Virus record (IMG/VR): IMGVR_UViG_2778261161_000002
DNA: 64,000 nt
Source of the DNA: a virus
Taxonomy: Duplodnaviria > Heunggongvirae > Uroviricota > Caudoviricetes
Reading direction: 5' to 3' (one strand)
A model generated the notes under the pieces. It did no database searches. It was not told where the DNA came from and saw nothing but the letters and a program-made list of their open reading frames with translations. A program made the translations under genes and the position numbers. The number at the start of each line of letters is the position of its first letter. Position 1 is the stretch's first letter. Below are positions 744 through 57,123 of this stretch, piece by piece.

Positions 744-1070
744 ATGTTTGCAGATTATGAAAATCTGGCTGTAGTAGTCATAACATCCCTACTAAGTGGA
801 ACCGGCGTATTCCTTCTCGGAGTTAGAGACGGGCGCATTTCTGCGTCCCTGCTCAATCTTGCGAGTGAATTGTTTACTGCGGTAACAGCCGGGCTTGCGG
901 GGTATGGGGTGGCGGTTAGCCAAGAATGGCCTGAAGGTATCATTTTCTGCGTTGTTCTGATTGCCAGTAACAACGGTAGTGAAATTTTACAGGGCTTGAA
1001 GTCCAGAGCTAGTAACGTCTTGAATCTCTTAAGCGTAATAGCGAATGGGGGAAAAGGTGGAGAGAAATAA
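744..1070 (+). CDS. holin-like small membrane protein (LydA-like)
   Basis: 108 aa, three hydrophobic segments; position beside cin as for P1 lydA; stop overlaps next start. Confidence 0.5.
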   Translation: MFADYENLAVVVITSLLSGTGVFLLGVRDGRISASLLNLASELFTAVTAGLAGYGVAVSQEWPEGIIFCVVLIASNNGSEILQGLKSRASNVLNLLSVIANGGKGGEK

Positions 1071-1516
1071 TGGGTAACTTTGGAAATTATTTCATTTTTA
1101 TCATGGCATTTGTTGCCATCATTGACCGTTTCATTTTTCGTCGCAAGAGTGTTGAGATTTTGAGTATTGGTGACGCTGTAGTGAAAGAATCCGCTATAGC
1201 ATTTCCTGTTTCGCTACGTGTTAAGCGAAGCTGGGTCAGCAATGCTCAAATCGAATATTGGTTGCAAGACCTGAAAAATCCATCTGTGGTTATTTCAGGG
1301 AAAACGCGACCAGTTGACGCCTCAAAACGCGGTGAGAGAGAAGAGTATTTGCTCATCGATACGAAATATCTTGAGCCAACGAAGTGGGATCTGAAAGTCA
1401 CATTGACTAACGGTAACTGCCGACTGAATCCGCTTTATCGCATTTTCCCTATCAATGACTGCATAGAGCGCCAGTTTACGATCGAAAAGCGTGAAGGAGA
1501 CTGGGATGTCAAATAA
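1070..1516 (+). CDS. LydB-like protein (possible antiholin)
   Basis: 148 aa, translationally coupled to the holin-like gene; call is positional. Confidence 0.4.
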   Translation: MGNFGNYFIFIMAFVAIIDRFIFRRKSVEILSIGDAVVKESAIAFPVSLRVKRSWVSNAQIEYWLQDLKNPSVVISGKTRPVDASKRGEREEYLLIDTKYLEPTKWDLKVTLTNGNCRLNPLYRIFPINDCIERQFTIEKREGDWDVK

Positions 1517-2126
1517 GAATAATTATGTTCTTCTTAATTATGCTGAATTAAACGAAAAGGGGCTGGCAAAACTCGTCAAAGAAATCAGCAAAGGTGGTTA
1601 CAAGATAGCGAGGGTGATCCCTGCAAGTAATGGCAGGAAGAAAGATGGGATCATGACGCGCACGTTTACCCTTATTGGTATTGATGAACAGACAATGGAA
1701 GTTCAGGTTAACGATACCGGCGATATATCTGGGATCAAACTGAATGGTAAAACAGTACCGTTCAAGCCAGTAAAAACAATGTCGGCTTTGGGGCAATCTC
1801 TTGCGGCTTTATTTAATCGCGGAGCAACTTCTTTCCAGAAGTCATTAGCTCGAAAACTTGCTCGTGCAGCAAAAAATATTGATGACGGAAATAAGAAGCG
1901 GCAGGGAGTTAAATCTAACGCTCAGAAATTAGCTGAAGCGAAAGAATCACGTGATGCACTCCGTGAAGATATCGCTAATGCTAACGACAAACTGTCTAAA
2001 CTCCAGAGCAAGTCAGACAAAGTAATGCAAGATACGGGTAACGTTAAAGCTGCCTTGTCTCAGGAAGTAGCTAAGACACGTGCTCTTAAAGAAGAAATCG
2101 CGCGTCTGGAGGATGAGCATGATTAA
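1506..2126 (+). CDS. hypothetical coiled-coil protein, dar-like operon
   Basis: ORF with GGAG 5 nt upstream of ATG at 1506; charged helical C-terminus. Confidence 0.5.
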   Translation: MSNKNNYVLLNYAELNEKGLAKLVKEISKGGYKIARVIPASNGRKKDGIMTRTFTLIGIDEQTMEVQVNDTGDISGIKLNGKTVPFKPVKTMSALGQSLAALFNRGATSFQKSLARKLARAAKNIDDGNKKRQGVKSNAQKLAEAKESRDALREDIANANDKLSKLQSKSDKVMQDTGNVKAALSQEVAKTRALKEEIARLEDEHD

Positions 2127-4062
2127 CAATCCTTTACGAATTAATATTCAGTCTACTTTTGCTGATACGATCCCCGGCTATATGCCAAGTCGCTGGTCTT
2201 CAGAAGAATTAAGCGAAGATGACCTGATTTTTGAGGCGGCGACCTTAGAAGATATTGAGCTTGCCTATATGGGCAATGAAATTCTGGTTGTGTCTGACGA
2301 AGCTATGTTTGAGTCCATAACTACAACCAGAATTCGGTTAGCTCAAACAATGCGAGCTTTCGTCCGTGCGCTGAATCGTGGCCTGAATGGTACGAATATT
2401 ATGGCAGGGACTGATGAAGCTGGGACCGATGAAAATGGACGTAATTGTATTGGTGGTGCGATTATCGGTCGTGTACGTCGGGTAGCTAATATCCCTGTTT
2501 TGACCGCGCAGATACCGCTTACTGACGGGCAGAGTACAAGCATAATTTTCCACTCTCCAACAGCTGACGGGGCAAAAATAAAGAGTAACGACGAGCTTGT
2601 TGCATTTCAGTTTTTACTTAATAAGCGTAACGTAACTCACGTTGTCGCCCCGATTGGTGGGAGAGATGTTTCTTTAAGCCAGGTATGCCAGGCGCTATCT
2701 AATTTGATTGAGCGTAACAGCGAAAAATTTAAGAAAGCAAAAGAGCGCCAGGACAAAATGAAGGCAGATATTGAGAGTTATCTCAATGAAGCAGATAAAC
2801 TGGCAGAAGAACGGTCAATAATGATTGATCAGGTGGACGTTGCGCAACGTGGGCTGACTGAAAAGCGTGCTGCTCTTACGGAGATGCAAAAAAAACTTGA
2901 TGCCCAGAAAGCTATCAATGAGGAATTACAAGCAAAACGCGATAAATTGTTGTCTGCTAAAGGTGAAAAAACGAAAGAACGAGCGTTTAGTGACCAGCTG
3001 CGACATGTAAAACATAATCTTGCCATTGACGGAAAAACAGTGCTTGATAATGGCGCTGAAGTTAATTATGTCACGTCCGGCAGTGACAATTTCGTTACGA
3101 TAGTAGCACCTGAAGGTAAATTCAGTATTGATGCCAGTGCTGTCAAAGGAGGCAGTTTGGCAGATGCTGCAACCAAATTACTTAAAGCCTACCGAGAGCA
3201 TAACGCAGATAAATATAAAGTTGATGTGTTACCAGGCCAGTTGGAAGACTCCGAACCACCACAGACAGACCCCGAAACGAACCCAGTATTACAACCAGAG
3301 AGCCAAGATGTAGGTGAATACCACTATGCACTTCAATCTCGCCCGGCTGGTGTTGGTGCTGTTCCGGATGGAAATAAAGCCGTGCTTGATCGTCCTGACC
3401 AGGCTGATCAGTATTACGAATATGCTCGTCACGGTATCATTACGTATGACCGTAAACTGACAGATGAAGAAGTCAGCCAGTACGAGTTGCTTTATCTTCC
3501 TGATGAAGATGAGCTGAAAGATTTTGCAGGCCAATTGGTTGCGTCCAGCATGTCGAAACATATTGATGGCTATGTGGACCTGTTTGGCAGTGACCTGAAA
3601 ACATTCAAGGCGCAAGTGAAAATTCTTTTCCGCAAAGCGTTTCCAAACGTGGCGTATCCACTTAGTGATGGGGAGAACCTTTTCATTATGGACGTGTATA
3701 ACGCCCTTCAAAATCATTCAAGCGAAGTAAAAACAGAGCATGTGGTTGAGCCAGAATCACAACCACAACCACAACCACAACCACAACCAGCACCAGAACA
3801 GGAGTCGGAGCCAGAAGAAGCGGGTGAATCAGCAAGTGAAGCTGATCAGGAAGCAGATAAAGCGCTGGAGTACCTGAAATCCGTGCCGGAGCAGTTTACA
3901 TCCCGCGATCTGACGGTCATCAGTGCTGAACTTGATCATGTGCAGGAAGCAGCAAACGCTCTAATCAGTGCAGGTCGATACGACGAGAACGAAGCCACTG
4001 TGGGTGCAGCAGTTGACTACCTGATCAATATTCTGGCTGAAATTCAGCAGGGAGGTGTTTAA
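2119..4062 (+). CDS. large virion-associated protein (DarA-like by position), with PQ repeat linker
   Basis: about 647 aa ORF, GGAGGA before ATG 2119; coiled-coil centre, (PQ)5 linker, acidic tail; no motif proves DarA identity. Confidence 0.45.
   Translation: MINNPLRINIQSTFADTIPGYMPSRWSSEELSEDDLIFEAATLEDIELAYMGNEILVVSDEAMFESITTTRIRLAQTMRAFVRALNRGLNGTNIMAGTDEAGTDENGRNCIGGAIIGRVRRVANIPVLTAQIPLTDGQSTSIIFHSPTADGAKIKSNDELVAFQFLLNKRNVTHVVAPIGGRDVSLSQVCQALSNLIERNSEKFKKAKERQDKMKADIESYLNEADKLAEERSIMIDQVDVAQRGLTEKRAALTEMQKKLDAQKAINEELQAKRDKLLSAKGEKTKERAFSDQLRHVKHNLAIDGKTVLDNGAEVNYVTSGSDNFVTIVAPEGKFSIDASAVKGGSLADAATKLLKAYREHNADKYKVDVLPGQLEDSEPPQTDPETNPVLQPESQDVGEYHYALQSRPAGVGAVPDGNKAVLDRPDQADQYYEYARHGIITYDRKLTDEEVSQYELLYLPDEDELKDFAGQLVASSMSKHIDGYVDLFGSDLKTFKAQVKILFRKAFPNVAYPLSDGENLFIMDVYNALQNHSSEVKTEHVVEPESQPQPQPQPQPAPEQESEPEEAGESASEADQEADKALEYLKSVPEQFTSRDLTVISAELDHVQEAANALISAGRYDENEATVGAAVDYLINILAEIQQGGV
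3758..3788 (+). repeat. (CACAAC)x5 tandem hexanucleotide repeat encoding PQPQPQPQPQ
   Basis: perfect tandem repeat read directly in the sequence inside the 2119..4062 CDS. Confidence 0.85.
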
Positions 4063-4430
4063 TGACCATCTCTGTTTTAGACCGCCTGAAATTAGGTAAA
4101 GAGCTATCAGATCTAATGCAGGCGCAGAAAACTGCGCCAGTATTGCAACGCGTCACCATTGGTAAGCAGATTGTTGATGTGATGCTGAAATTGGGCCTGG
4201 GGACTGCCGCGCAACCGGCAGCGGAACCGCAACAACAGGCTGATCCTGTTGTAGATGAAGTCCCTAAGATAGTGACTGACTTCCTGGGCGGTGTGTTCAC
4301 AAAGTCCACACAAATGGAATTTATTGATGCGCTGCGTGGGATCTCAAACTATGTTGGCGAGTTCCTTACGTTGGAGCAGGCTAAAGAGCAGACCATAAGC
4401 TGGGTGAAAGCTAACGGTTATGCCGGGTAA
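4062..4430 (+). CDS. hypothetical protein
   Basis: 122 aa ORF, TAATG overlap with upstream gene. Confidence 0.5.
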   Translation: MTISVLDRLKLGKELSDLMQAQKTAPVLQRVTIGKQIVDVMLKLGLGTAAQPAAEPQQQADPVVDEVPKIVTDFLGGVFTKSTQMEFIDALRGISNYVGEFLTLEQAKEQTISWVKANGYAG

Positions 4431-4432
4431 TC

Positions 4433-4456
4433 AAAAGGGGCTGAAATGCCCCTTTC
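4433..4456 (+). terminator. intrinsic terminator-like hairpin
   Basis: AAAAGGGGC-TGAAAT-GCCCCTTT followed by T-rich tract. Confidence 0.55.
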
Positions 4457-4512
4457 ACTTATCTGTTCTCACATAAATCACACACTTTTTACACTCACAG
4501 CTTTCTCTATAG

Positions 4513-5910
4513 TTGGAGTGTATTTTGAACAAATCAGTTACTTCTGCGCTTTCCGAGGCCGCAGATATTAACAGCGTCATTGCTCTGGTTTCTTCATTAG
4601 AGAGGAAAGAAACACACCTGGGGCGAAGTAGCTACGTAGTCACCAGCAAAGGTGCAGAGGTAAAGACGGCTTTTAAGGTCGTTGATGCCAGCAGTCTGAT
4701 CATTTCGAACAACCTTGACGGTACGATTAACCCGGCCTTCCCGGAAGAACTCCAACCACGAGATCGTACCCGGCTATCCAGCAAACTCCAGGTTAACCGT
4801 ATTGCCTCCAATTTACGCCCGGCACAATTAACGGATTCCGGTATGAGCAGCCACGGAGCGCCTATAGTTGGTCCGGACAACGTTGTTGAATCCGGCAACG
4901 GAAGGAGTATGGGTATCTGGCGTGCCTATGAGCAAGGACAGGCGGATGAGTATCGCCAGTACCTGATCGACCATGCGAAAGAGTTTGGTCTGAATCCTGA
5001 CGAAATTTCGCAAATGTCTATGCCCGTACTGGTGCGAGAAAGACTCACAGATGTAGACCGCGCTCAATTTGCCCGCGATTCAAACATTAGCGATCTGCAA
5101 GAGATGGCAGCAAGTGAAAAAGCGTATGCGGATGCGCAATTTCTCACTGAGAGCGTCATGGCGCTATTTAATCCTTCAGATGATGGAAATCTGCTGGCGC
5201 GGTCCAATGATGCGTTTATTCGTGCGTTTTTGCGCGAAATTGGCGATACAGCGACGGCAGGCTTGCTTACTGCCGATGGGCGTCCCACGAAACAGCTTAT
5301 CGATCGCATCCAGAATGCAATTTTTGCCAAAGCGTACAAGGATGAAAGGCTTGTTCGGCTGGTGTCGGAAGAGCCAGATCCGGAAATGCGTAATATCCTG
5401 ACCGCATTAAATACGGCAGCCAGCGATTTTGCGCAAATGCAGTCGCTGTCTGGCGACGCTCACCATGACGCAGTAACAGGCTTAGTGGACGGTATAGAGC
5501 AGGTTAATGGCCTGGATACACAGGCGATAGCAGCACTCCAGGAAGCAATTAATCTTGTACGTGAAGCCAAAGACAACGGTCAGGCCGTTGAAGAAGTGAT
5601 CGCCCAAAGGGGGTTATTCGGCGACAGTACACCGGAAGCTGAGGCATTGGCGCTATTCATCGTAGCAAATAATCGCAGTGCGAAGCGTATGGGGGCAGCA
5701 TTCAAAAAAATGGCGCAAAAAATCAACGACGAGCTGACTCATAAACAACAGGCATTGGGCGATATGTTCGGCGGTGGCGATGTTGATCTGCGTCGTATTT
5801 TGTCTGCTGTATCTGATGAAATTGAGGGTGAATTTGGCGAAGGGAAAGGTCTGAACTTTGCTATGTTTGAAAATTCTACGGATCTAAATAATTGCCGTAC
5901 GGAAAACTAA
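4513..5910 (+). CDS. hypothetical protein (possible virion internal protein)
   Basis: 465 aa ORF with uncertain TTG start; no recognisable catalytic motif. Confidence 0.45.
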   Translation: MECILNKSVTSALSEAADINSVIALVSSLERKETHLGRSSYVVTSKGAEVKTAFKVVDASSLIISNNLDGTINPAFPEELQPRDRTRLSSKLQVNRIASNLRPAQLTDSGMSSHGAPIVGPDNVVESGNGRSMGIWRAYEQGQADEYRQYLIDHAKEFGLNPDEISQMSMPVLVRERLTDVDRAQFARDSNISDLQEMAASEKAYADAQFLTESVMALFNPSDDGNLLARSNDAFIRAFLREIGDTATAGLLTADGRPTKQLIDRIQNAIFAKAYKDERLVRLVSEEPDPEMRNILTALNTAASDFAQMQSLSGDAHHDAVTGLVDGIEQVNGLDTQAIAALQEAINLVREAKDNGQAVEEVIAQRGLFGDSTPEAEALALFIVANNRSAKRMGAAFKKMAQKINDELTHKQQALGDMFGGGDVDLRRILSAVSDEIEGEFGEGKGLNFAMFENSTDLNNCRTEN

Positions 5911-11382: not shown

Positions 11383-11407
11383 GCCCCGGCCTGGCCGGGG
11401 CTTTTTT
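11383..11407. terminator. bidirectional intrinsic terminator
   Basis: GCCCCGGCC-T-GGCCGGGGC followed by TTTTTT. Confidence 0.7.
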
Positions 11408-11892
11408 CATGCCTCATTAGTTGAGGTTGCTGCGTCTCCGACTGGTAACAGAGCGGTATTGTGTGGTTCGCCAGCAGGCCAGCGATAGCCAGACACTCTT
11501 GATGTTGGGAATGCGCGAATATTAACCGCATCCCCCTGGTTCCCACCCAAGACAAGCAGATCGCCATTGGCGCGGCGTCCGACAACGAAGCCTACGTGCC
11601 CACCGCCTACGCGGGTAAATACAACGATACATCCGTATGCCGGTGTATCTAATTTCTCGCCCCAATCCAGATAGGATTTTGCCGACTCAAATCTTGTTGA
11701 GCGGATGCCTACACGTTCCAGCATTGCACCGACAAATGCTGCGCACCACGGCGTTTCATCGTCTTTAATTCCGCCGCGCTTGATGTCGCGCCAGAACTGA
11801 ACGATTTCAGGGTTGTGTTTAGCGCCTTTTATTTCAGTCAGGCCAATGTGCTTACGGGCTTCAATTAGCCAGCGAGGTTCAATGTTTGCCAT
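11407..11892 (-). CDS. NlpC/P60-CHAP-like cysteine peptidase (phage-associated)
   Basis: 161 aa; Cys in PWCAAFVG and His in GGHVGFVVG spaced as in CHAP-type peptidases. Confidence 0.45.
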   Translation of the reverse strand: MANIEPRWLIEARKHIGLTEIKGAKHNPEIVQFWRDIKRGGIKDDETPWCAAFVGAMLERVGIRSTRFESAKSYLDWGEKLDTPAYGCIVVFTRVGGGHVGFVVGRRANGDLLVLGGNQGDAVNIRAFPTSRVSGYRWPAGEPHNTALLPVGDAATSTNEA

Positions 11893-12043
11893 ATTTTTCT
11901 CCCGGTCATGGGTTAATAAGTAGGCAAACTATGGGGAGTATGTGATTTTGACGGTAGTATCGTCCCCCTGAAAATAACATTCTCCATACCCTCTCAACCG
12001 TACCGCATAGCGGAATTTTTTACGGTTTAGAGGGGGAAATCCT

Positions 12044-15000
12044 TTGGACAAACTACTTCATTCAATCAGTGAAGCCTCCAGCTTAGGCGAACTGATTGAA
12101 ATTGTTAGTCGGTTGCATAAATTACGTGCTGTTGCGACCTTTGGCGTCAGGAAAGCCGATGGCGTCAGTATTCAGAAAACACGCCGGGCAGCAAACAATG
12201 CCGCAGTAAATCTTCTTAATTCCCTTCCGCCCGGCTTCGATGGGGCGAAATTAACTGACGAACAACGTCAGATTCTTGCTGGGTATACCGGTGAAGGCGG
12301 CCTGACAGATGGTGAGGGCAGCCAATACGAATACTACACGCCACAGTTTATGGCTGAAGGTATATGGGATCTGTTTGCTGACTACGGTATTGATGGCGGG
12401 CACGTACTGGAACCATCAGCGGGCACAGGTATTTTCCAGGAGACAAAACGGCAGGGCATGATAATGACCAGCGCCGAACTGTCTCCGATTTCTGGTCGAA
12501 TAAACCAGCTTTTGCACCCGGAAGACGATGTGAATATCGGGGCGTTTGAGGCGCTGGCGGCGAAAGATGCAATGTATGACCACGCTGTTGGTAACGTACC
12601 GTTTGGTGAAGGGCGTTCCGGCGTTGCCGGGCTTGATCCGGCATATGCAAACGAGAAGAACGTTGGCAATTACTTTGTGCTGCGCACGATCGACAAGGTT
12701 AAGCCTGGTGGGCTTATCGTATTGGTGGTGCCAAATGGCATGACCGATGGTACGAAATATAAAAAATTGCGCGATAAAGTCAGCCGTAAAGCGGAATTTT
12801 TGGGCGCGCATCGTATGCCTTCCGGTACGTTCAGTGAATCAGGTACAGATACCGTGGTGGACGTATGGGTATTGCGTAAACACCCGGAAGCCTTCCTGGA
12901 GATGATCCCCGATACGGATGATTCGACGCTCAAATCGGCAAACGTCCTTTGGGATACCTTCCTCAAAGGAAAATGGTTTACAACCGAAGGGAAGCGATTT
13001 GTTTACGGCGACATGGAACGTACCAGCTTCCGCAATACCCTGGTGGTGAAAAAAGACGGTCGTGTATCCAATGAGTCGATGAAAACCGCGCTATCTCGTC
13101 GCTTTGATAGTCGCATCAATTGGGATTTGCTCGGCGTAACTACTCAGGCATGGCAGGGCGCGAAAGTGGGCGATAAACGCCTTGTAGGCGGTATCTGGCA
13201 TGAGTTTGATGGTCTGAAATGGGTTAAGGACACGACAACCAAATCCTCCGCGCTTGATGTAAGTCGATATGGTGTTTCGACGTTTGGCGATCTGCAGATC
13301 GCGTTCCAGTCAACAAACGGGATTCTGGCTTTGTCATGGGACCAGATATCGGCGATCGCGTCCGACTATCCATCGGTTGTCAGTGATGAAGTGGCAGCAA
13401 TGATTCGCTTTGCTGGCAAGCAGCGAGAAAAAGACAGGGAGCGCGTTATGCGCGGTGCACTGATAGGTCAGTTGATCAACAAGGCACTTGATTTGCGTAA
13501 CCTGGGGGTGAACGTTGATGACAAACTGGCAGATGCATCCCGCCTGGCGGCAGCAGAAGTTGCGAAGTATGGACCACCGCACGCGATTAAGCTGAATGGG
13601 CTTGCTGAAGCTGGCGCTAAAAACTGGATGACGTTCACTGGCAATGTGAAACAGGATGGTTCCACTTCTGACCTTCTGGCAGGGCGACTTGATGTAACGG
13701 ATGGTGCTGCCGGTATTGACTTTACGCGTCCTGAACAAGTGATAGCACATCTTTTTAGTGATGTAGCCCTTAATCCTATAACGCTGGGCGACTTTCGTGA
13801 GGCGTTTGCTGGTGAACTGCCAGAGGACGACGACGCGGCCCTTGAATACCTGGCGAAATTTGATGATATCGCTATTGATGGGTATGGCTGTCTGCTGCCG
13901 ATGGACCGCGCCACCAGCGGCGATGTTGCAACCAAAACAGCACTGCTGGTGGGTTGGCGTGATGCGTCAACAGGTGAGCAGAAAGCGAACTTTGAGCGTC
14001 AGTTGGCGAAAATCGAAGAGAAACGCATTTTCACGCCACTAAATAAAGTCACCGTTAATCTGAACGCCCGCTGGCTGGATCGCCGCTTGATAAAAGAGTT
14101 CCTGGCAGAGCAGGGCTATGACGAGTTTAAGTACACTGAACCTGATCTGAAGGTCGTCGATGGCATTCTGGTATCTCCGGACGATTACGAAGGTAAGGAC
14201 GGGGTATTTACCGGCTATCAGCTACGAACCGTAAACGGCAAAAACGGGAATGAGTTCAAGAAGGCCAACAATAAAGACGGCTTCCTGAACCAGTTAGAAA
14301 ACTACCTGAACGGTGTTAAACCGCGTGGGCAGAACGCTAACGAGTACCTGGATAAAATTGCTCAACTGGAAGTTAGCTTTAACGACTGGTTACGCACTCA
14401 CCCGCAGGCTGATCAGATAGCCCGCGAGTATAACGACGCATTCAATGGTTTCATTCCGTTCACGCATTCTGACGCACCGCTTGGCCTGGAAGGGATTAGT
14501 GGAAAGCGCATTCCTCTGACTTATCAGAATGAAGAAGTTCGGCGCTTGTCAGAAGATGGGCGCGGCATCATGGGATTTGGTACCGGGCTGGGTAAAACCA
14601 CGACCGCGCTTGCGCTTGAGGCGTATAACTTCGAAACAGGTCGCACTAAACGCACGTGTATTGTTGTTCCGAAGGCGGTTTATCAGAACTGGTATCACGA
14701 GGCACAGAGTTTCTACAGTGCTGATGCCTTCGCCAATATGATGTTTATCGGTTTGGATGAAGTTCGTGATGACAGCGGAAATATTCTGACCGCGCCGGTG
14801 CTTGATGAAAATGGCGAACCACGCCTCGACAGTAACGGGCAGCCTCTTACCAGAAATGTTGTGAAAGAGTCCGCCAGCGCCGTTATCGTTCAGCGCATGA
14901 ACATGATCCCGTCGTCAAATTGGCGAACGGTCATCATGACAAAAGAACAATTCGCGTCTATCCCGCTACGAGAAAAAACCATCGAGGAGAACTCACAGCA

Positions 15001-18000
15001 AGCTGTCTTTAATGCTGTGGAAATGGGGCGTCTTGACCTGGCGTCTGGCAAACACCGTGATGCACAGAAGAAGAACAAGATTAAGGATCAGGCCGCGAAT
15101 ACCGGTACAACGAAGAAGCAGAATATCCCGTACTTTGAGGATATGAACTTCGATAGCGTGATTGCCGACGAGGGGCATAACTACCGCAACTCCTTTAATG
15201 CCGGGCGTGAAGCGGGACAACTGGCATATTTGCCTAACCCGGCAGTATCCAAGATGGCCCGCGACATGGCTGTAAAAGCTGCGTACATGATGAAACGCAA
15301 CAACGGACGTGGTGTAGTCATGCTGACGGCAACTCCGCTGGTGAACAGTCCGATTGATGCCTTCAACATGCTGTCTACTGTCATTCCGCAGGAAGAGTGG
15401 ATGCGCATGGGCATCATTACGCCTGATGATTTCGTTCGTGTGTTTGGCAAAACAGCCACAGTTCAGGTCCAGAAAATTTCCGGGGAAGTGGAAGAGAAGC
15501 AGGGGCTGGTGGGCTTCCAGAACCTTGATGGCCTGCGTGGTATTTTCCATCGTTGGACCACTCTGAAGACTGCCGCAGATGTCGGAGCGACGGTTAAAAT
15601 TCCCGACATCATCGAGAACACCTTGCAGATCCCGATGACAGGGGAGCAGGAGTCTGCTTATGAAGAACTTCGTAAGCGTGCTCAGGAGTTAAGTCGCAAT
15701 GATGAGCTGACAGTCGATGAAAACGGGCATATCACTAACGACAAACCGGATGATTTCATCTTCTCCATCATCCGTGACATGGACAAGGTTGCTATAGACC
15801 CGGATCTGTATGCCAGTGCGATTACATTCCAGTTCCCCGTTGAGCTTGCAGACCAGGTAAAAGCTATTGCTGATGCCTTGCCAAAAGTAGCTGGTGGTAA
15901 AGTGGCAGATGATGTTGATGAGGCCGAGGAAGACGGCGCTGGCGGGCTGGTCAGTACGCGTACCAGCAAGGTAGTGAAGACCGCTTTTAGTGAACATCCG
16001 ACGCATGTTGAAATACGTGCCAGCATTGAACTGGAAGCTGAAATACTGAAGGCCATTGCGGCTGCCGGTATTGATATGCAGCAGGTATCGCACCCCATCC
16101 CGCCGAAGTATGCCGCGCTGATCGAAAATCTTCGTGAAGGTCTGAAGAACGGTAAGCAGATCGTCTTTATTGATGAAAAAGCCCAGCACCAGAAGCTGCG
16201 CCGTATTATCGCCAGTGCACTGCAAATGCCGGAGCAGGAGATTGGCATTATCAATGCGACGACAGTTAGCCAGGCTGGCGGCATCAAGCTGAAGAAGGTG
16301 AATAAGCCGACCGAACCTACTCCAAACAAAAACGGTGAATACAAAGAAGGGGCATGGGAAACCTACTACAGCAAACTTGCCCAATATGAGGATTATCTCT
16401 CAGCTAAAAATGATGCTGGCCTTGAGGGCATGGAAGGTATTGCCGCCGACTATAACGAAGGTCGCACGCGCATCATAATCTGTAACAAGAAGGCTGAAGT
16501 AGGTATTAACCTGCACATCGGGACAACCGATATCCACCACCTGACACTACCCTGGACACCAGCCAGTATCGACCAACGAAATGGGCGCGGTGCGCGCATA
16601 GGTTCACCGCAAGAGAAGGTCAATGTTCACTACTATTGTGGCAAAGGCACATTCGACGACTTCCGTCTGGATACGCTGAAACGTAAGAAAGACTGGATCA
16701 AGATGGTGATGACCTCCGACATGTCAGAGATCGCCAATGGTGATGTGGATGATGCTGATGAACGCGCCATTATGCTGGCGGCAAACCCGGAAGAACGCCG
16801 CGCAATCATGGCTCGCCAGGCGCAAGAGCGTGAAGAACGTCTGAAACTGAAAGCACAGCGCGAGGCCAACAATGCTCTCGATATCTACCTGAAAGCGGCA
16901 AACGCCGCCGGAAAAGATATCGGCATGATGGAGACAGAACTGAAAAGCGCGATGGAACAGATAGAGTATTACCAGCGCAATCTTGACGACCTGATAAAAG
17001 CGGGTACGAACAGGAATGGGCAAAAATACGCGCTTGAGCAGTTGAGTAGCTACAGAAAACGTGCGCGGGTGCTGCGGTTTGCGATCACCAGGGCAAAAGA
17101 CGCGGATACCATAATGAAACGCTCTCGTGGTGATGTGGAGCGCGCTATTAAGTCTGGTGTGCTGGATATCAGTATCGATGTTATTCAGAACCCACAGGAA
17201 TATATGCGCACTGACAAGAATATCCTGTTGCATAAAGGTAGTTATTACCGTGCAGTCATTGATGATCGCGAAACAACAGCGATTGTCCGGGTGGAAAAAA
17301 TTGACGGTGAAAAAGCACAATACATCTGTCGTATCGCCTGGCTGGATAGAGCAAGTCGTTACGCTCGATCACCGGGGTCAATCGTTACATTGCCGTTTGA
17401 CTCTGTGATTGAAGCGGTAACTTTTGAAGAGGGGGTTGCTGAATCGCGCGCAACGGCTGCGCGTGGTGTTCAGTGCCACCAGCTATCAACAATACTTACT
17501 CGCGATCAGTTCTATGATGCTATTCGCAATGGGGTAATGAATGTTATTGCTGGTAAACCTGGTAATGCATGGGGCGGTGGATCAGCTATTAAATACTGGG
17601 CATATCGCACAGAAGATGGTCAGATCGCGCTGTCATCGGCCTATGATGGCGTGATAGGCCAAAAAATCGGGCGAGCATCGGATATAGCACCTGAACGATG
17701 GATATATCCTGATGGCAACGACGAGGCGCTGAAGCGTGAAGTGGCAAAAATACAAGCCAGTGATAACCCGCTGAATATCGTGGACGGAGAGGGATTCCTC
17801 CAGGCATTGTATGGGTATGATTACATCCAGGGAATGCAGGCATGGGGCGCACAGGCAACGATGGATGATGTTGCCAAGGAGTTCGAAAACTGGATGGCTG
17901 GGCGTGGTCTGTCAGGTCGTTCGCTTAATAAAGTCACTTCTGAAGATATTCTTAGCTTGTTCCGTAAACCGTCCGGAGAAGGTCTGGAATCATTCTGGAG

Positions 18001-18880
18001 GACCGTGCTGGCATACCGTTTATTCCAGGGCAGGATGAAAGCCTTTAGCAATATCGATGATATTGAACGGATGTTTAATCAGGTCAAGATCGCGAAAATT
18101 AAGGCGAAGATCGAAAAAACACGTTCTGCGCTGGTGGCCTGGCGCGATGCATTGTTTGAGCAATATAAATCACTCAGTGATGCAGATGGATGGGCGGCGC
18201 TGGAACAGTTGGCGAATAATGGGGTAGATGGGGCGAAACTCGCCATTGTCCAGGCTGATAACCCCCTGGAATCACCGGCAGCACAGTGGATTAAGGTGGG
18301 GGCTGTCATCAATGCATTTGATGAAAAACACATTAGTAAGGACGATTTTGCTGATGCTGTTTCTGTTAATCGCCTGGTAGAAATGGCTACCCGCCGCGCC
18401 CGTGAGTTGAAAGATGGCGACTATGTGAATGAGTTGCCGGATACGCTCAAATCGGCAACGTGGCAGGACTATGTATCGCTGAAAAACGGCGGGGCCACTG
18501 AATCAGAGATCGCGGAAAGGCTTGAGCAGGCTGAAAGCAAAAGAGAAGAGCAGGCGGCAGTGGCTGAAGCCAGAGCTGATGAAGCGGCAAATGATGACTA
18601 TATCATTGTGGTTAATGATAAGCCTATTCGCGCTAAGGCGCGTGTTCGCGGGCGCTGGTGGAGCGTCAGCGAGGACGTTGGCGCGGTTTATCTCATTGCC
18701 GACCAACCAGGTTCCTCGACAATACGGAACGCCAAAGACGCGATTAAGAAGATTGGCGGGCGTTTCTGGAATTTTGAAGTGAATCCGGTCGCGGATGTGG
18801 ACTTTGACCGTCCGGCGTGGATGGTATCTACGCGTTACTCGGTAGATGAACTGCGTAAAATAATCGCCGATGCGGCTTAA
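12044..18880 (+). CDS. darB: DarB-like methyltransferase-helicase giant protein
   Basis: 2278 aa; N6-adenine MTase motifs (LEPSAGTGIF, NVPFGEG) then SF2 helicase motifs (GTGLGKTTTALA, DEGHNYRN, TATPLVNSP, QRNGRGARIG). Confidence 0.8.
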   Translation: MDKLLHSISEASSLGELIEIVSRLHKLRAVATFGVRKADGVSIQKTRRAANNAAVNLLNSLPPGFDGAKLTDEQRQILAGYTGEGGLTDGEGSQYEYYTPQFMAEGIWDLFADYGIDGGHVLEPSAGTGIFQETKRQGMIMTSAELSPISGRINQLLHPEDDVNIGAFEALAAKDAMYDHAVGNVPFGEGRSGVAGLDPAYANEKNVGNYFVLRTIDKVKPGGLIVLVVPNGMTDGTKYKKLRDKVSRKAEFLGAHRMPSGTFSESGTDTVVDVWVLRKHPEAFLEMIPDTDDSTLKSANVLWDTFLKGKWFTTEGKRFVYGDMERTSFRNTLVVKKDGRVSNESMKTALSRRFDSRINWDLLGVTTQAWQGAKVGDKRLVGGIWHEFDGLKWVKDTTTKSSALDVSRYGVSTFGDLQIAFQSTNGILALSWDQISAIASDYPSVVSDEVAAMIRFAGKQREKDRERVMRGALIGQLINKALDLRNLGVNVDDKLADASRLAAAEVAKYGPPHAIKLNGLAEAGAKNWMTFTGNVKQDGSTSDLLAGRLDVTDGAAGIDFTRPEQVIAHLFSDVALNPITLGDFREAFAGELPEDDDAALEYLAKFDDIAIDGYGCLLPMDRATSGDVATKTALLVGWRDASTGEQKANFERQLAKIEEKRIFTPLNKVTVNLNARWLDRRLIKEFLAEQGYDEFKYTEPDLKVVDGILVSPDDYEGKDGVFTGYQLRTVNGKNGNEFKKANNKDGFLNQLENYLNGVKPRGQNANEYLDKIAQLEVSFNDWLRTHPQADQIAREYNDAFNGFIPFTHSDAPLGLEGISGKRIPLTYQNEEVRRLSEDGRGIMGFGTGLGKTTTALALEAYNFETGRTKRTCIVVPKAVYQNWYHEAQSFYSADAFANMMFIGLDEVRDDSGNILTAPVLDENGEPRLDSNGQPLTRNVVKESASAVIVQRMNMIPSSNWRTVIMTKEQFASIPLREKTIEENSQQAVFNAVEMGRLDLASGKHRDAQKKNKIKDQAANTGTTKKQNIPYFEDMNFDSVIADEGHNYRNSFNAGREAGQLAYLPNPAVSKMARDMAVKAAYMMKRNNGRGVVMLTATPLVNSPIDAFNMLSTVIPQEEWMRMGIITPDDFVRVFGKTATVQVQKISGEVEEKQGLVGFQNLDGLRGIFHRWTTLKTAADVGATVKIPDIIENTLQIPMTGEQESAYEELRKRAQELSRNDELTVDENGHITNDKPDDFIFSIIRDMDKVAIDPDLYASAITFQFPVELADQVKAIADALPKVAGGKVADDVDEAEEDGAGGLVSTRTSKVVKTAFSEHPTHVEIRASIELEAEILKAIAAAGIDMQQVSHPIPPKYAALIENLREGLKNGKQIVFIDEKAQHQKLRRIIASALQMPEQEIGIINATTVSQAGGIKLKKVNKPTEPTPNKNGEYKEGAWETYYSKLAQYEDYLSAKNDAGLEGMEGIAADYNEGRTRIIICNKKAEVGINLHIGTTDIHHLTLPWTPASIDQRNGRGARIGSPQEKVNVHYYCGKGTFDDFRLDTLKRKKDWIKMVMTSDMSEIANGDVDDADERAIMLAANPEERRAIMARQAQEREERLKLKAQREANNALDIYLKAANAAGKDIGMMETELKSAMEQIEYYQRNLDDLIKAGTNRNGQKYALEQLSSYRKRARVLRFAITRAKDADTIMKRSRGDVERAIKSGVLDISIDVIQNPQEYMRTDKNILLHKGSYYRAVIDDRETTAIVRVEKIDGEKAQYICRIAWLDRASRYARSPGSIVTLPFDSVIEAVTFEEGVAESRATAARGVQCHQLSTILTRDQFYDAIRNGVMNVIAGKPGNAWGGGSAIKYWAYRTEDGQIALSSAYDGVIGQKIGRASDIAPERWIYPDGNDEALKREVAKIQASDNPLNIVDGEGFLQALYGYDYIQGMQAWGAQATMDDVAKEFENWMAGRGLSGRSLNKVTSEDILSLFRKPSGEGLESFWRTVLAYRLFQGRMKAFSNIDDIERMFNQVKIAKIKAKIEKTRSALVAWRDALFEQYKSLSDADGWAALEQLANNGVDGAKLAIVQADNPLESPAAQWIKVGAVINAFDEKHISKDDFADAVSVNRLVEMATRRARELKDGDYVNELPDTLKSATWQDYVSLKNGGATESEIAERLEQAESKREEQAAVAEARADEAANDDYIIVVNDKPIRAKARVRGRWWSVSEDVGAVYLIADQPGSSTIRNAKDAIKKIGGRFWNFEVNPVADVDFDRPAWMVSTRYSVDELRKIIADAA

Positions 18881-18916
18881 CAGATAAGGAGCGGCCCCAA
18901 CCGGGGCCGAATTTGA

Positions 18917-19351
18917 ATGACGACACTAATTGACACTGTAAAACCGACGGAATCCTACCTTGAGGACATTTTGCCGCAGGCGCTCAATGGCAGGAGTGAA
19001 GAGGCGTTTCTGGATGCATATCTGAATGGCATGGTGGAAAGGCTGAAACGAGATCCACAGCTTTATCACCTTTATGGGCCGTGGTGGCCTGCGCTTAAAA
19101 CGTTATTGCTGGAGCGCGGCGACATATCATTTGGACAAGTTGTAGATAGTGATGTGGCAGAGATCTACAAAATGAGTCGCCCGGCGCTTACGGTTTTGGC
19201 TGGGCATCTGTATTCGAGCGATCGCCTGGAAAATGACGCGGTATACAATCCTGTTCATGCTCTGGAAGTCGCACCTTATGCCGATGATACAGAGCCATAC
19301 GTGTACACAAGTTACGACGAGTCTATAGAGAAATATCGAATCATGGGGTAG
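18917..19351 (+). CDS. hypothetical protein
   Basis: 144 aa ORF directly after darB. Confidence 0.45.
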   Translation: MTTLIDTVKPTESYLEDILPQALNGRSEEAFLDAYLNGMVERLKRDPQLYHLYGPWWPALKTLLLERGDISFGQVVDSDVAEIYKMSRPALTVLAGHLYSSDRLENDAVYNPVHALEVAPYADDTEPYVYTSYDESIEKYRIMG

Positions 19352-23312: not shown

Positions 23313-23389
23313 GATGGTGTAGCTCAGTAGGATAGAGCAGCAGCCTTCTAAGCTGTCGGTCGGTGGTTCGAATCCATCCACCATCGCCA
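23313..23389 (+). tRNA. tRNA-Arg (anticodon UCU)
   Basis: hand-folded cloverleaf: 7-bp acceptor GATGGTG/CACCATC, anticodon loop CTTCTAA, T-loop TTCGAAT, encoded CCA; resembles E. coli argU. Confidence 0.85.
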
Positions 23390-23391
23390 AT

Positions 23392-23464
23392 GCCGGTTTA
23401 GCTCAGTTGGTAGAGCGCCTGCCTTGTAAGCAGGATGTCAGCGGTTCGAGTCCGTTAACCGGCA
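23392..23464 (+). tRNA. tRNA-Thr (anticodon UGU)
   Basis: acceptor GCCGGTT/AACCGGC, anticodon loop CTTGTAA, T-loop TTCGAGT. Confidence 0.85.
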
Positions 23465-23476
23465 CCGACACAACAG

Positions 23477-23550
23477 GTAAGGGTATTTTGCGACGTCGGA
23501 GATCGCCGTGCTTGGCAGAGGGTTCGAATCCCTACGAAGTACCCTTACCG
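23477..23550 (+). other. tRNA-like remnant (non-canonical)
   Basis: GGTTCGAATCC T-loop motif inside a 10-bp stem GGTAAGGGTA/TACCCTTACC; no canonical cloverleaf. Confidence 0.3.
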
Positions 23551-23921
23551 TTGTGATGAAGTGCAGCTCTTTGAAGCAACCAGAAGATAAGCATCTGGCT
23601 TCACAACATAAACCGCATGAACGACCAATAAACGGTAGTCCGTATGGAGAACACCCCGTTGAGGAAGAGGCCTGGCCGGAACCGTAACCGGCACTACAAC
23701 GTTGAGAACACTGGCGTAACGGGGTCATATCCCAATCTATGAATAAATGTTGCGTTGCAGCGTGACAACCAGTGTTCTCAACATTGTGGTGAATGCGCAG
23801 GCTGATGCGCGAAAGACATTGCAGCTATTGCGGAAAAGAGCTGTTCGGCGGGGCAATTAAACGCCCGTGAGAGTCTGAAATAACCGCAAGCCGGAGATCA
23901 GCACCGGTCGCCACAATCAGC

Positions 23922-24008
23922 GGAGAGTAGGGGGCATGGTGCTCAAGCGGTCTTGAAAACCGTCCCATTGCGCAAGCGATGATGGTTCGATTCCATTACT
24001 CTCCGCCA
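23922..24008 (+). tRNA. tRNA-Ser (anticodon UGA), type II with long variable arm
   Basis: acceptor GGAGAGT/ACTCTCC, anticodon arm GGTCTTGAAAACC as in E. coli serT, T-loop TTCGATT, CCA encoded; D-arm atypical. Confidence 0.55.
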
Positions 24009-24620: not shown

Positions 24621-24629
24621 CAGTAATCT

Positions 24630-29524: not shown

Positions 29525-30562
29525 TTACCAGAGCTTCGCGGCGTACTGCGTTTGGGGGAATGTGTATCCGTAACGTTCTTCGATTGCTTTGCCGTATTTT
29601 TTACGAGCTTCATTCAGTTTAATGCCGGTCAGGTCGTCTCCAGAGGCCATCATTACGTCTAACAATTCCAGATCCATTTTATCCAGCCTTGCCATTGCTT
29701 CACGTGATGTACGTATCTTACGTTCAATGATATGGCGAATAGCCGGATCGGCATCCTCCAGCATCTTAGCGGATTTCTGCTTAAGGCTTTCATTGCGAAT
29801 ATCGATGTTCCTTAAGATGTACGACTTCGCAACGTAGCTTGGCTGGTGTTTTTCCAGGTCACGAACACGATATAAGTTAAAATCGCCGAGAAGGCTGCAA
29901 GGTACCGATTCGACGCCAGAATAAATTGTAATGCTCCGGCGTTCACCAACATTATTGACAACGGGGATCGTTGTCTTCGGTAGTCTTGCGAAAACCAATG
30001 CGCCATGTGCGCCAACTCTAAAGCGAGAAAGGGCATTGCTGCCTTCGATGTTTGTTGTCAGCACAACATCTGTATATGCCTCTTTACGCGCCCGGTAGAT
30101 CTCGCCTTCAGGCTCAGCTTCAAAGAAGCGCTGTTCTTCTTCAAGAGCACCTACGATTTGAGAAAAAACCCTATTTTTCAGGCTTTTCTTTATGATTTTG
30201 TCGTATTTTTTTAGCAATTGTTCACGTGTAAATGTACGTGTTGTTGTAGCGCTTTGCACAACGACATGCGTGCTTTGATTGGTGTCCTCAATGATGAATG
30301 GGATCGGAGAATATACAGACTCAACAATGTTCGACGCTTTGCCGTCGGCATCGCGGCACATGTCAACGAAGGCTTTCCATTCAGCAAGACATTTTTCAGC
30401 TTCTTCTAATATGTTTTGGTCATGCGTTAATGCAACATGGCGGAATTCCTCGCCAGCATAACTGGTATCATGGAAAACAGAGTTTGCGACCACCAGCTCT
30501 TTCCACCGTTCAGCGGTTTGCAGGAACCGTTTGTACTCTTTCTCGATCGACTTCTTACTCAT
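29525..30562 (-). CDS. hypothetical protein at immunity-region position
   Basis: 345 aa, transcribed from the rox side toward pacB; operator-like motif at its 5-prime end; no recognisable domain. Confidence 0.45.
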   Translation of the reverse strand: MSKKSIEKEYKRFLQTAERWKELVVANSVFHDTSYAGEEFRHVALTHDQNILEEAEKCLAEWKAFVDMCRDADGKASNIVESVYSPIPFIIEDTNQSTHVVVQSATTTRTFTREQLLKKYDKIIKKSLKNRVFSQIVGALEEEQRFFEAEPEGEIYRARKEAYTDVVLTTNIEGSNALSRFRVGAHGALVFARLPKTTIPVVNNVGERRSITIYSGVESVPCSLLGDFNLYRVRDLEKHQPSYVAKSYILRNIDIRNESLKQKSAKMLEDADPAIRHIIERKIRTSREAMARLDKMDLELLDVMMASGDDLTGIKLNEARKKYGKAIEERYGYTFPQTQYAAKLW

Positions 30563-57111: not shown

Positions 57112-57123
57112 TAATTACAAAGG

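What the first reader, a model, noticed from the sequence alone, without database searches (positions are those of the whole stretch)
12044..18880. DarB-like 2278-aa methyltransferase-helicase next to a divergent CHAP-like peptidase
The giant protein carries N6-adenine MTase and helicase motifs like the P1 anti-restriction protein DarB, which is injected to protect DNA from type I restriction. Its neighbour is a divergently transcribed CHAP-like cysteine peptidase (11407..11892) rather than the P1 arrangement.
Basis: partly seen in the sequence, partly recalled or inferred. Interest (0 to 1): 0.4.

Follow-up and report, generated by a model that had tools for sequence, protein, structure and literature searches.

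The report
Known DarB antirestriction gene, phage D6-type
The giant gene is the already-annotated darB antirestriction gene of a phage D6-like plasmid prophage (a relative of P1), and its neighbour is most likely the phage's cell-wall-cutting lysis enzyme, so the finding is correct but ordinary.

Summary
Window 12044..18880 (+) is one 2278-codon ORF, and 11407..11892 (-) encodes a 161-aa CHAP/NlpC-P60 protein transcribed divergently from it.

The window is a phage D6-like plasmid prophage: 98.8% nt identity to Escherichia phage D6 and up to 99.7% to E. coli plasmids. The giant protein is 99% identical to D6 gp15, which GenBank already annotates as "defense against restriction, similar to P1 darB". 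It is collinear with P1 DarB (40-43% identity).

- All methyltransferase and SNF2-helicase motifs are invariant.
- ulx lies immediately downstream, as in P1.
- Homologs of hdf, darA, ddrA and ddrB lie 6-10 kb upstream.

So it is a genuine DarB ortholog. By homology it is packaged in the head, ejected with the DNA and protects that DNA in cis from type I restriction.

The non-P1 neighbour is explained. The CHAP gene (TIGR02594 family) replaces P1's lysozyme Lyz, which is absent from D6. A Citrobacter P1-like plasmid has it in the lyz slot, and an inversion of the lysin...pro-prt block (plus loss of the ddrB 3' half and hxr) would give the D6 order.

Only the fast-evolving, fold-orphan C-terminal 680 residues remain unexplained. 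Already known; low interest.

The parts
12044..18880 (+). darB: 2278-aa DarB ortholog (N-terminal helical region, gamma-class N6-adenine methyltransferase, linker, SNF2-type helicase, DarB-specific C-terminal module)
   Evidence: ORF. 99% identical to D6 gp15. 40-43% identical to P1 DarB over the full length. End-to-end match to phrog_1685 at 3504 bits.
12044..12133 (+). Residues 1-30, the position of the P1 DarB capsid-targeting sequence
   Evidence: In P1 the N-terminal 30 residues suffice to target a reporter to the capsid (PMC9024508). Here 8 of 30 residues are identical to P1, and residues 6-10 are not conserved (alignment). Function is inferred only.
12329..12943 (+). N6-adenine methyltransferase domain (about aa 96-300): TP cap YYTP97, motif I EPSAGTG123-129, motif IV NVPF184-187
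   Evidence: Motifs are invariant in 7 DarB-like proteins. The family profile hits HsdM of EcoKI and StySJI at E 1e-6 to 1e-5.
14501..16723 (+). SNF2/SF2 helicase module (about aa 820-1560): Walker A GTGLGKT846, DEGH1042, TATP1095, QRNGRGAR1511
   Evidence: Pfam SNF2-rel_dom, ResIII and Helicase_C. Motif strings. Invariant across the family.
16844..18877 (+). C-terminal module (aa 1601-2278). Predicted as coiled coil, beta domain, helical domain, small beta domain. No known family or fold.
   Evidence: 18-26% identity to P1 per 100-residue block. No Pfam hit. Only 27 relatives among 1.84 billion representatives. AF2 pLDDT 84.6. No informative fold match.
18917..19351 (+). ulx homolog, 144 aa. 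In P1, Ulx aids DarB localisation to the head.
   Evidence: 46% identity to P1 Ulx, E 7e-45. D6 gene 14. Role in P1 from PMC9024508.
11407..11892 (-). TIGR02594/CHAP (NlpC/P60 superfamily) peptidoglycan hydrolase, 161 aa; probable endolysin. Candidate catalytic residues are Cys50 and His99.
   Evidence: C50, H99, N118 and Q119 are invariant in alignment A3. 99.4% identical to D6 gp16.
11893..12043 (.). 151-bp divergent intergenic region between the lysin gene and darB. Promoters not identified.
   Evidence: Sequence. The sigma-70-like match and the P1 late-box-like match are at chance level.
11383..11401 (+). Strong hairpin (8 G-C pairs) plus T6. Terminator of the + strand ant-orf17 unit, abutting the 3' end of the lysin gene.
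1491..2126 (+). hdf homolog (Dar system; head size and Dar incorporation). ORF limits are mechanical.
   Evidence: 39% identity to P1 Hdf. D6 gene 28.
2080..4062 (+). darA homolog
   Evidence: 38% identity to P1 DarA over 627 aa. D6 gene 27.
4062..4430 (+). ddrA homolog
   Evidence: 33% identity to P1 DdrA. D6 gene 26.
4513..5910 (+). Short ddrB homolog: 465 aa, equivalent to the N-terminal 442 aa of P1's 995-aa DdrB
   Evidence: 64% identity over P1 residues 2-442 only.
744..1516 (+). lydA holin and lydB antiholin homologs, the likely partners of the lysin
   Evidence: 43% and 34% identity to P1 LydA and LydB. D6 genes 30 and 29.

Best explanation
The window is a phage D6-like circular plasmid prophage, a distant relative of P1. 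The ORF at 12044..18880 is its darB gene.

Shown here:
- The protein is a full-length ortholog of P1 DarB.
- It has an intact EcoKI/TaqI-like N6-adenine methyltransferase domain and an intact SNF2-type ATPase.
- ulx follows it directly.
- hdf-darA-ddrA-ddrB homologs accompany it in the same window.

Inferred from P1 work:
- The protein is made during lytic growth.
- It is recruited into the procapsid through its N-terminal signal, after Hdf/DarA, DdrA and DdrB.
- It is ejected with the DNA.
- It acts only in cis on that DNA to prevent cutting by EcoKI/EcoB-type type I restriction enzymes.

The biochemical step is unknown even for P1. The most likely model is ATP-driven translocation along the incoming DNA, coupled to adenine methylation or to blocking or displacing the translocating restriction complex.

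The divergent neighbour is a TIGR02594/CHAP peptidoglycan hydrolase. It most likely serves as the phage's endolysin, with the LydA/LydB holin-antiholin pair, in place of P1's Lyz. It lies next to darB because the block carrying the lysin, pro and prt is inverted relative to the P1-type order. It is not a functional partner of DarB.
For: Identity of the element:
- 98.8% nt identity to phage D6 over 8.5 kb.
- 99.7% to E. coli plasmids, with 113 plasmid records covering at least 80% of the query.
- The D6-type darB is in 93 of 5426 complete E. coli genomes, almost always on plasmids.

Orthology:
- 99% identical to D6 gp15, annotated 'similar to P1 gene darB'.
- 40-43% identical to and collinear with P1 DarB.
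- Motifs I and IV and helicase motifs I, II, III and VI are invariant in 7 family members.
- The MTase profile hits HsdM structures.

System context:
- Ulx 46%; Hdf 39%, DarA 38%, DdrA 33%, DdrB 64%.

P1 function:
- DarB and Ulx are in the virion proteome, the N-terminal 30 residues act as a capsid-targeting signal, and there are about 40 copies per virion (PMC9024508).
- Incorporation is ordered (PMC12810830).
- Protection is in cis (PMC12707154; PMC5512222).

Lysin:
- TIGR02594 at 143 bits, with an invariant Cys and His.
- P1 Lyz has no tblastn hit in the window or anywhere in D6, nor in the Citrobacter plasmid.
- Free-standing homologs sit in holin-endolysin-spanin cassettes (PMC5418858).
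- In Citrobacter plasmid NZ_CP099371 the 77%-identical gene lies between ddrB and pro on the darB strand, which is the lyz slot of P1, while darB is divergent from prt-pro. Inverting that block gives the window's gene order.
Against: - No experiment on D6-type DarB was found. Virion presence and antirestriction are extrapolated across 57-60% sequence divergence.
- The N-terminal 30 residues share only 8 identities with P1. Residues 6-10, implicated in P1 packaging, differ.
- DdrB is half-length here, so the assembly pathway may differ.
- The C-terminal 680 residues are only 18-26% identical to P1.
- Motif IV is NVPF rather than the canonical NPPF. This variant is shared with P1 DarB, and one relative has NPPF. 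No methyltransferase activity has been demonstrated for any DarB in the papers I read.
- Expression of cloned P1 darB gave only a DNA-mediated artefact, not protein-mediated EcoKI inhibition (PMC11109961).
- No promoter could be assigned.
- The simple inversion model does not account for the missing ddrB 3' half and hxr.
Confidence: 0.8

Rival explanations
1. The protein is a DarB homolog whose target range or role has shifted. The fast-evolving C-terminal module would redirect it against other defence systems (other type I families, BREX) or give it a mainly structural role in the head, so that it does not protect against EcoKI/EcoB as in P1.
For: - The C-terminal 680 residues are 18-26% identical to P1, against 40-68% elsewhere.
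- That module has only 27 relatives among 1.84 billion representatives and no known fold.
- DdrB is truncated.
- The Dar system is reported to affect BREX as well as type I systems (PMC12707154).
Against: All catalytic motifs, ulx and the Dar scaffold genes are conserved. That argues for the same core activity. Nothing in the sequence points to a specific new target.
Confidence: 0.12
2. The giant protein is a lysogen-expressed defence or restriction-modification-like enzyme (type ISP/IIG-like, or DISARM/Zorya/BREX-like SNF2 component) that protects the host from other phages.
For: Domain-level similarity of the helicase lobes to DrmD, ZorD, DpdE and BrxHII, and of the MTase to type II and type I methyltransferases.
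Against: - All those scores are far below family cutoffs, for example DrmD 46 bits against a 610-bit cutoff.
- No nuclease domain was detected.
- No partner genes of those systems are adjacent.
- The protein is collinear end to end with a virion protein of P1 and sits with ulx among morphogenesis genes.
Confidence: 0.03
3. The CHAP-like neighbour is a virion-associated (tail or baseplate) lysin used for cell-wall penetration at infection, not the endolysin.
For: - The best PHROG is 'baseplate hub subunit and tail lysozyme' (phrog_1259).
- RefSeq names D6 gp16 that way.
- In Kuttervirus phages the domain is part of a 541-aa protein encoded between baseplate hub and wedge genes.
Against: - Here it is a free-standing 161-aa protein matching only the C-terminal 160 positions of that 1179-position profile.
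- D6 already has a Sit-like tail transglycosylase.
- D6 has holin and antiholin genes but no other endolysin candidate.
- Free-standing homologs lie in lysis cassettes.
- In a related plasmid the gene sits in the lyz slot.
Confidence: 0.15

Closest known systems
Escherichia phage D6 gp15 (GenBank MF356679, ASR76325.1, 'defense against restriction; similar to P1 gene darB')
   Same: Same length (2278 aa), 2258 of 2278 residues identical, same flanking genes (gp16 hydrolase upstream and divergent, ulx-like gp14 downstream).
   Different: 20 substitutions. The window lacks about 1 kb (D6 orf23 and orf24) between ddrB and prt. It is essentially the same gene.
Phage P1 DarB (AAQ13985.1, 2255 aa)
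   Same: - Collinear over the full length.
- Same TP cap, motif I (EPSAGTG), motif IV (NVPF) and SNF2 motifs.
- ulx immediately downstream.
- hdf-darA-ddrA-ddrB in the same genome.
- P1-like head genes.
   Different: - 40-43% identity overall, falling to 18-26% in the C-terminal 680 residues.
- The N-terminal targeting region is poorly conserved.
- The upstream neighbour is the lysin gene rather than prt-pro.
- The partner DdrB is half-length.
- The start codon is TTG rather than ATG.
Methylase-SNF2 helicase dyad of 'polyvalent proteins' of phages and conjugative elements (Iyer et al. 2017, PMC5512222), including giant 'DarB-like' proteins of Bcep22-like and PEp14-like podophages (phrog_10089)
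   Same: N-terminal helical region with a GxG[GAS] motif (GEGG83), then an EcoKI/TaqI-like adenine MTase, then a SWI2/SNF2 ATPase. phrog_10089 matches at E 4e-82.
   Different: Those proteins carry many further effector domains and are up to 3,700-12,000 aa. Here the dyad is followed only by a DarB-specific C-terminal module.
HsdM methyltransferase subunits of type I R-M systems (EcoKI, StySJI, EcoR124II)
   Same: Same gamma-class fold family, with TP cap, motif I and N-x-P-F-G motif IV. Profile E-values are 1e-6 to 3e-3.
   Different: No HsdS or HsdR partners. Fused to an SNF2 ATPase. These are the very systems that P1 DarB counteracts. The similarity is at domain level only.
TIGR02594-family endolysins of Pseudomonas/Stenotrophomonas siphophages (e.g. 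ZC01 gp75, UF_RH5 ORF50), and P1 Lyz as the functional counterpart
   Same: Free-standing proteins of 160-180 aa, 43-47% identical to the window protein, with the same invariant Cys/His, encoded next to holin and spanin genes.
   Different: Here the gene is 10 kb from the lydA/lydB holin genes. P1 Lyz is an unrelated lysozyme with no detectable similarity. No member of the family that I found has been assayed biochemically.

Membership tests
P1 DarB family (capsid-borne antirestriction methyltransferase-helicase) | Full-length collinear sequence homology to P1 DarB | tested here: met
   BLASTP 1516 bits, 40% identity over 2370 columns. 43.4% over residues 1-1935. Weaker but alignable to the C-terminus.
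P1 DarB family (capsid-borne antirestriction methyltransferase-helicase) | EcoKI/TaqI-like N6-adenine MTase domain with TP cap, motif I and NPP(Y/F)-type motif IV | tested here: met
   YYTP97, EPSAGTG123 and NVPF184 are identical to P1. The motif IV variant N-V-P-F is family-typical, and one member has NPPF. Profile hits to HsdM structures reach E 1e-6. Pfam N6_Mtase is 0.2 bits under its cutoff.
P1 DarB family (capsid-borne antirestriction methyltransferase-helicase) | SWI2/SNF2-type SF2 ATPase C-terminal to the MTase, with intact motifs I, II, III and VI | tested here: met
   Pfam SNF2-rel_dom, ResIII and Helicase_C are above cutoffs. GTGLGKT, DEGH, TATP and QRNGRGAR are conserved and invariant in the family.
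P1 DarB family (capsid-borne antirestriction methyltransferase-helicase) | Genomic context: ulx immediately downstream, hdf-darA-ddrA-ddrB operon in the same P1-like genome | tested here: met
   Ulx 46%. Hdf, DarA, DdrA and DdrB are 33-64% identical. P1-like portal, protease, terminase and capsid genes are present. DdrB is half-length.
P1 DarB family (capsid-borne antirestriction methyltransferase-helicase) | N-terminal capsid-targeting sequence (first 30 residues in P1) | tested here: inconclusive
   Only 8 of 30 residues are identical. P1 residues 6-10 (MGVFR) correspond to HSISE here (requirement from PMC9024508). It may have co-evolved with D6's own head proteins.
P1 DarB family (capsid-borne antirestriction methyltransferase-helicase) | Physically present in the virion head and ejected with the DNA | not testable with these tools
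   Known for P1 only. No D6 proteomics found.
P1 DarB family (capsid-borne antirestriction methyltransferase-helicase) | Protects incoming DNA in cis against EcoK/EcoB-type type I restriction | not testable with these tools
   Genetic phenotype in P1. It needs plating assays with a D6 darB deletion.
CHAP / NlpC-P60 peptidoglycan hydrolases, TIGR02594 subfamily | Score above the curated family thresholds | tested here: met
   TIGR02594 143.3 bits against 70.55, covering 131 of 132 profile positions. Pfam CHAP 31.4 bits against 26.
CHAP / NlpC-P60 peptidoglycan hydrolases, TIGR02594 subfamily | Conserved catalytic Cys and His | tested here: met
   C50 (PWC) and H99 (GGGHVGF) are invariant in 5 diverse homologs, as are N118 and Q119. 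Their assignment as catalytic residues is by analogy with NlpC/P60 enzymes. The structure model was unusable (pLDDT 41).
Phage endolysin (functional class) | The only free-standing muralytic enzyme of the phage, acting with a holin at the end of the lytic cycle | tested here: inconclusive
   Supporting: no P1 Lyz homolog in the window or D6; holin and antiholin present; homologs in lysis cassettes; lyz-slot position in a related plasmid. Not adjacent to the holin here. No activity data.
Anti-phage defence SNF2 proteins (DISARM DrmD, Zorya ZorD, Dpd DpdE, BREX BrxHII) | Score at or above the family cutoff, with the system's partner genes adjacent | tested here: not met
   Best is DrmD at 46 bits against a 610-bit cutoff. 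Others score 15-42 bits against cutoffs of 500-1500. PADLOC hits are local only. No partner genes are nearby.

The most novel reading that the evidence does not exclude
The C-terminal ~680-residue module (aa 1601-2278) is a rapidly evolving specificity or adaptor module. It has no Pfam family and no informative fold match, has only 27 relatives among 1.84 billion representatives, and is 18-26% identical to P1. Under this reading, D6-type and P1-type DarB proteins neutralise different sets of host defence systems, or dock to different head scaffolds, while sharing one methyltransferase-translocase engine.
Probability: 0.15. Interest if true: 0.45.

Novelty: already known. Interest (0 to 1): 0.13.

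Why it matters
It matters little as a discovery. The gene, its homology to P1 darB and its neighbours are already recorded in the GenBank entry of phage D6. Near-identical copies sit on about 100 sequenced E. coli plasmids.

Its value is as a natural variant for an open problem. The biochemical mechanism of DarB is still undefined even in P1. A second, 57-60% diverged ortholog with all catalytic motifs intact marks which parts are indispensable: the MTase, the SNF2 module, and the linker residues listed. It also marks which parts are free to vary: the N-terminal targeting region and the C-terminal module.

The side result is a small, testable clarification of D6 biology. D6-type elements use a TIGR02594 cysteine peptidase instead of a lysozyme in the lysin slot, and an inversion (plus loss of the ddrB 3' half and hxr) accounts for the non-P1 gene order.

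Tried and rejected
1. Single-sequence AlphaFold of the CHAP protein gave pLDDT 41 and was unusable. I drew no conclusions from it.
2. PDB sequence search with the CHAP protein gave only a chance hit to GAPDH, E 0.19.
3. Word-index homolog search with the DarB C-terminal region returned only near-identical fragments.
4. Fold searches with the confident C-terminal model were uninformative:
   - BFVD and PDB Foldseek gave nothing at E <= 1e-3. The only local resemblance was a ~65-residue beta-barrel to Tudor/KOW-like domains at E 0.2-1.
   - The afdb50 library was unavailable.
5. P1-type late promoter box (AAGTGAYTT-N4-TANNNT). The box-like ATGTGATTT at 11940 upstream of darB has the wrong spacing, and such matches occur 3.9 +/- 1.8 times in shuffles. 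It is not evidence.
6. The sigma-70 scan of the intergenic region was at chance level.
7. P1 C1 operator consensus gave 0 matches at up to 3 mismatches in the window.
8. Membership in defence-system SNF2 families is rejected on score and context.
9. Pfam scans of the N-terminal 120 aa, the 290-830 linker, residues 1201-1450 and the C-terminal 748 aa found nothing credible.
10. Piya et al. 2017 (PMC6011833) is not held in the library. Its results are cited only through papers that summarise it.
11. The Gilcrease & Casjens 2018 D6 paper did not appear in my two literature searches. I could not check what it says about gene 15 or 16 beyond the GenBank notes.

Full report
**1. The observation**

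The window has a single 2278-codon ORF at 12044..18880 on the + strand. It starts at TTG, with a GAGGGGG Shine-Dalgarno sequence 7 nt upstream. By my arithmetic, a stop-free frame of that length has a chance probability of about e^-109.

Immediately upstream, across a 151-bp spacer and on the opposite strand, lies a 161-codon ORF at 11407..11892.

Pfam finds SNF2-rel_dom, ResIII and Helicase_C above threshold in the large protein. N6_Mtase scores 20.2 bits against a 20.4-bit cutoff. The small protein matches CHAP at 31.4 bits against a 26-bit cutoff.

**2. What the window is**

An 8.5-kb stretch around the finding is 98.8% identical to Escherichia phage D6 (MF356679 / NC_050154). It is up to 99.7% identical to non-mobilizable E. 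coli plasmids of about 90 kb. Of the plasmid records, 113 cover at least 80% of the query.

The D6-type darB occurs in 93 of 5426 complete E. coli genomes, almost always on a plasmid. D6 is a circular plasmid prophage distantly related to P1.

Its GenBank record already annotates three genes here:
- gene 15 as 'defense against restriction; similar to P1 gene darB'
- gene 14 as ulx-like
- gene 16 as 'putative peptidoglycan hydrolase'

The window's proteins are 99% (2258/2278) and 99.4% identical to D6 gp15 and gp16.

**3. Is it really a DarB?**

Direct comparison with P1 DarB gives 1516 bits and 40% identity over 2370 alignment columns, and 43.4% over residues 1-1935.

Identity per 100-residue block has three regimes:
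- 50-55% in the N-terminal methyltransferase part
- 47-68% in the helicase lobes
- 18-26% from residue 1600 onwards

The signature strings are identical in both proteins:
- the TP cap (YYTP)
- motif I (EPSAGTG)
- motif IV (NVPF)
- Walker A (GTGLGKT)
- DEGH, TATP and QRNGRGAR

They are invariant in an alignment of seven DarB-sized relatives. Motif IV is N-V-P-F in six of these and the canonical N-P-P-F in one, so the valine is a family trait rather than a lesion.

A profile of the first 330 residues hits solved HsdM subunits of type I systems (StySJI, EcoKI, EcoR124II) and BsaXI at E 1e-6 to 3e-3. The alignment runs through the TP cap, motif I and motif IV. This agrees with the published classification of DarB's methyltransferase as EcoKI/TaqI-like, and of the helicase as SWI2/SNF2-like (PMC5512222).

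**4. System context**

A Ulx homolog (46% identity) follows darB after 36 nt, exactly as in P1.

Homologs of the four other Dar proteins lie at 1491..5910:

| Protein | Identity to P1 |
|---|---|
| Hdf | 39% |
| DarA | 38% |
| DdrA | 33% |
| DdrB | 64% |

The DdrB homolog is only 465 aa. It corresponds to the N-terminal 442 residues of P1's 995-aa protein.

Hits to defence-system helicases (DrmD, ZorD, DpdE, BrxHII) are local and far below family cutoffs. No partner genes are nearby. The protein is not a defence-system component.

**5. Mechanism**

What is known comes from P1:
- DarB (about 40 copies) and Ulx are in the virion.
- The first 30 residues of DarB suffice to send a reporter into the capsid (PMC9024508).
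- Dar proteins load in order after Hdf/DarA (PMC12810830).
- They are ejected with the DNA and protect only the DNA they were packaged with, against EcoK/EcoB-type enzymes.

The biochemical mechanism is 'not defined'. Plasmid-expressed darB gave only a DNA-mediated restriction-alleviation artefact (PMC11109961). The favoured model couples SNF2-type translocation to adenine methylation of the entering DNA.

I transfer this model to the D6-type protein by orthology. The steps not shown for D6 are packaging, ejection, cis protection and any enzymatic activity. The N-terminal 30 residues share only 8 identities with P1. If the targeting signal is conserved, it is at the level of structure or has co-evolved with D6's own head proteins.

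**6. The C-terminal module**

Residues 1601-2278 have no Pfam match. An exhaustive HMMER scan of 1.84 billion representatives found only 27 relatives, all DarB-sized proteins or fragments of them.

A 14-sequence alignment gave a confident AlphaFold model: mean pLDDT 84.6 and pTM 0.50. It shows a long coiled coil, a beta domain, a helical domain and a small terminal beta domain.

**7. The neighbour and the 'non-P1 arrangement'**

The 161-aa protein is a TIGR02594-family member (143 bits against a 70.55-bit cutoff) of the NlpC/P60-CHAP superfamily. Cys50, His99, Asn118 and Gln119 are invariant among five diverse homologs.

P1's lysozyme Lyz has no detectable homolog in the window or anywhere in D6. 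The LydA holin and LydB antiholin are present. D6's annotation lists no other free-standing muralytic enzyme.

Free-standing homologs in Pseudomonas phages UF_RH5 and ZC01 lie in holin-endolysin-spanin cassettes (PMC5418858). In Kuttervirus phages the domain is part of a baseplate-hub protein. That explains the misleading 'baseplate hub subunit and tail lysozyme' label from PHROGs.

A more distant P1-like plasmid, Citrobacter portucalensis NZ_CP099371, is informative:
- It has DarB 53%, Ulx 62% and the lysin 77% identical to the window, and no Lyz.
- Its darB is divergent from prt-pro as in P1.
- Its lysin gene lies between ddrB and pro on the darB strand, which is precisely where P1 has lyz.

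Inverting the block from the lysin gene to prt converts that order into the order seen in the window and in D6: ddrB, prt, pro, repL, icd, ant, orf17, then the lysin on the other strand, then darB.

The lysin is therefore next to darB through a rearrangement, not through a functional link. A pure inversion would also have carried the ddrB 3' half and hxr next to darB. These are absent, so at least one further deletion is implied (inference).

**8. Regulation**

I could not assign promoters in the 151-bp spacer:
- A sigma-70-like match and a P1 late-box-like sequence (ATGTGATTT at 11940) are at chance level.
- P1-type C1 operators are absent from the whole window.
- A strong hairpin plus T-run at 11383..11401 ends the + strand unit that converges on the lysin gene.

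**9. Verdict**

This is the known darB gene of a known phage type, present in near-identical form on many sequenced plasmids.

Novelty: already known. Interest is low.

The residual open points are the function of the divergent C-terminal module, the consequences of the half-length DdrB, and experimental confirmation that the TIGR02594 protein is the endolysin.

Noticed in passing
window 1-64000; within darB at 13911, 13945, 15505, 15890, 17476, 18130, 18654: Chi sites (GCTGGTGG) are strongly enriched: 28 on the + strand and 17 on the - strand in 64 kb, against about 2 expected from length. Seven lie in darB. P1 darB has 11, matching PMC11109961. No EcoKI, EcoBI or EcoAI recognition sites fall inside darB.
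   Followed up: partly
window 4513-5910 (+): The DdrB homolog is only 465 aa. It is 64% identical to the N-terminal 442 residues of P1's 995-aa DdrB. The C-terminal half was not found in the window, nor annotated in D6. The Citrobacter relative has a full-length gene of 3039 bp.
   Followed up: partly
window about 5910-5975, compared with L001 5957-6891: The window lacks about 1 kb carrying D6 orf24 and orf23 between ddrB and the portal gene. This is the main indel between the window and D6 in this region.
   Followed up: no
window 23313-24705 (+): ARAGORN finds four tRNA genes on the + strand: Arg-TCT, Thr-TGT, Ser-TGA and Met/Ile-CAT. The D6 GenBank record, as displayed, lists only three at the corresponding places, on the opposite strand, and calls the first one Asn.
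   Followed up: no
window 54290-54312 (-): This is the only perfect P1-type late promoter in the window (AAGTGACTT-N4-TAATCT). It lies downstream of, and antisense to, the mat homolog, in front of a tiny ORF (D6 orf77 region). P1-type late boxes are otherwise not recognisable, so D6 late promoters may use a different box.
   Followed up: no
window 18881-18916: The 36-nt darB-ulx spacer contains an AAGGAG about 25 nt before the ulx ATG, followed by a GGCCCC-AACC-GGGGCC hairpin. Folding would bring the Shine-Dalgarno sequence closer to the start codon. This could be a translational coupling or control element.
   Followed up: no
window 56001-58000: A local G+C dip to 37%, against about 47-50% elsewhere. 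It coincides with the RelE/HigA-type toxin-antitoxin genes annotated in D6 (orf70-73), which suggests a horizontally acquired cassette.
   Followed up: no
window, whole: No match to the P1 C1 operator consensus (ATTGCTCTAATAAATTT, up to 3 mismatches), although a C1-like repressor gene is present (29525..30562). This is consistent with a different immunity specificity from P1.
   Followed up: partly
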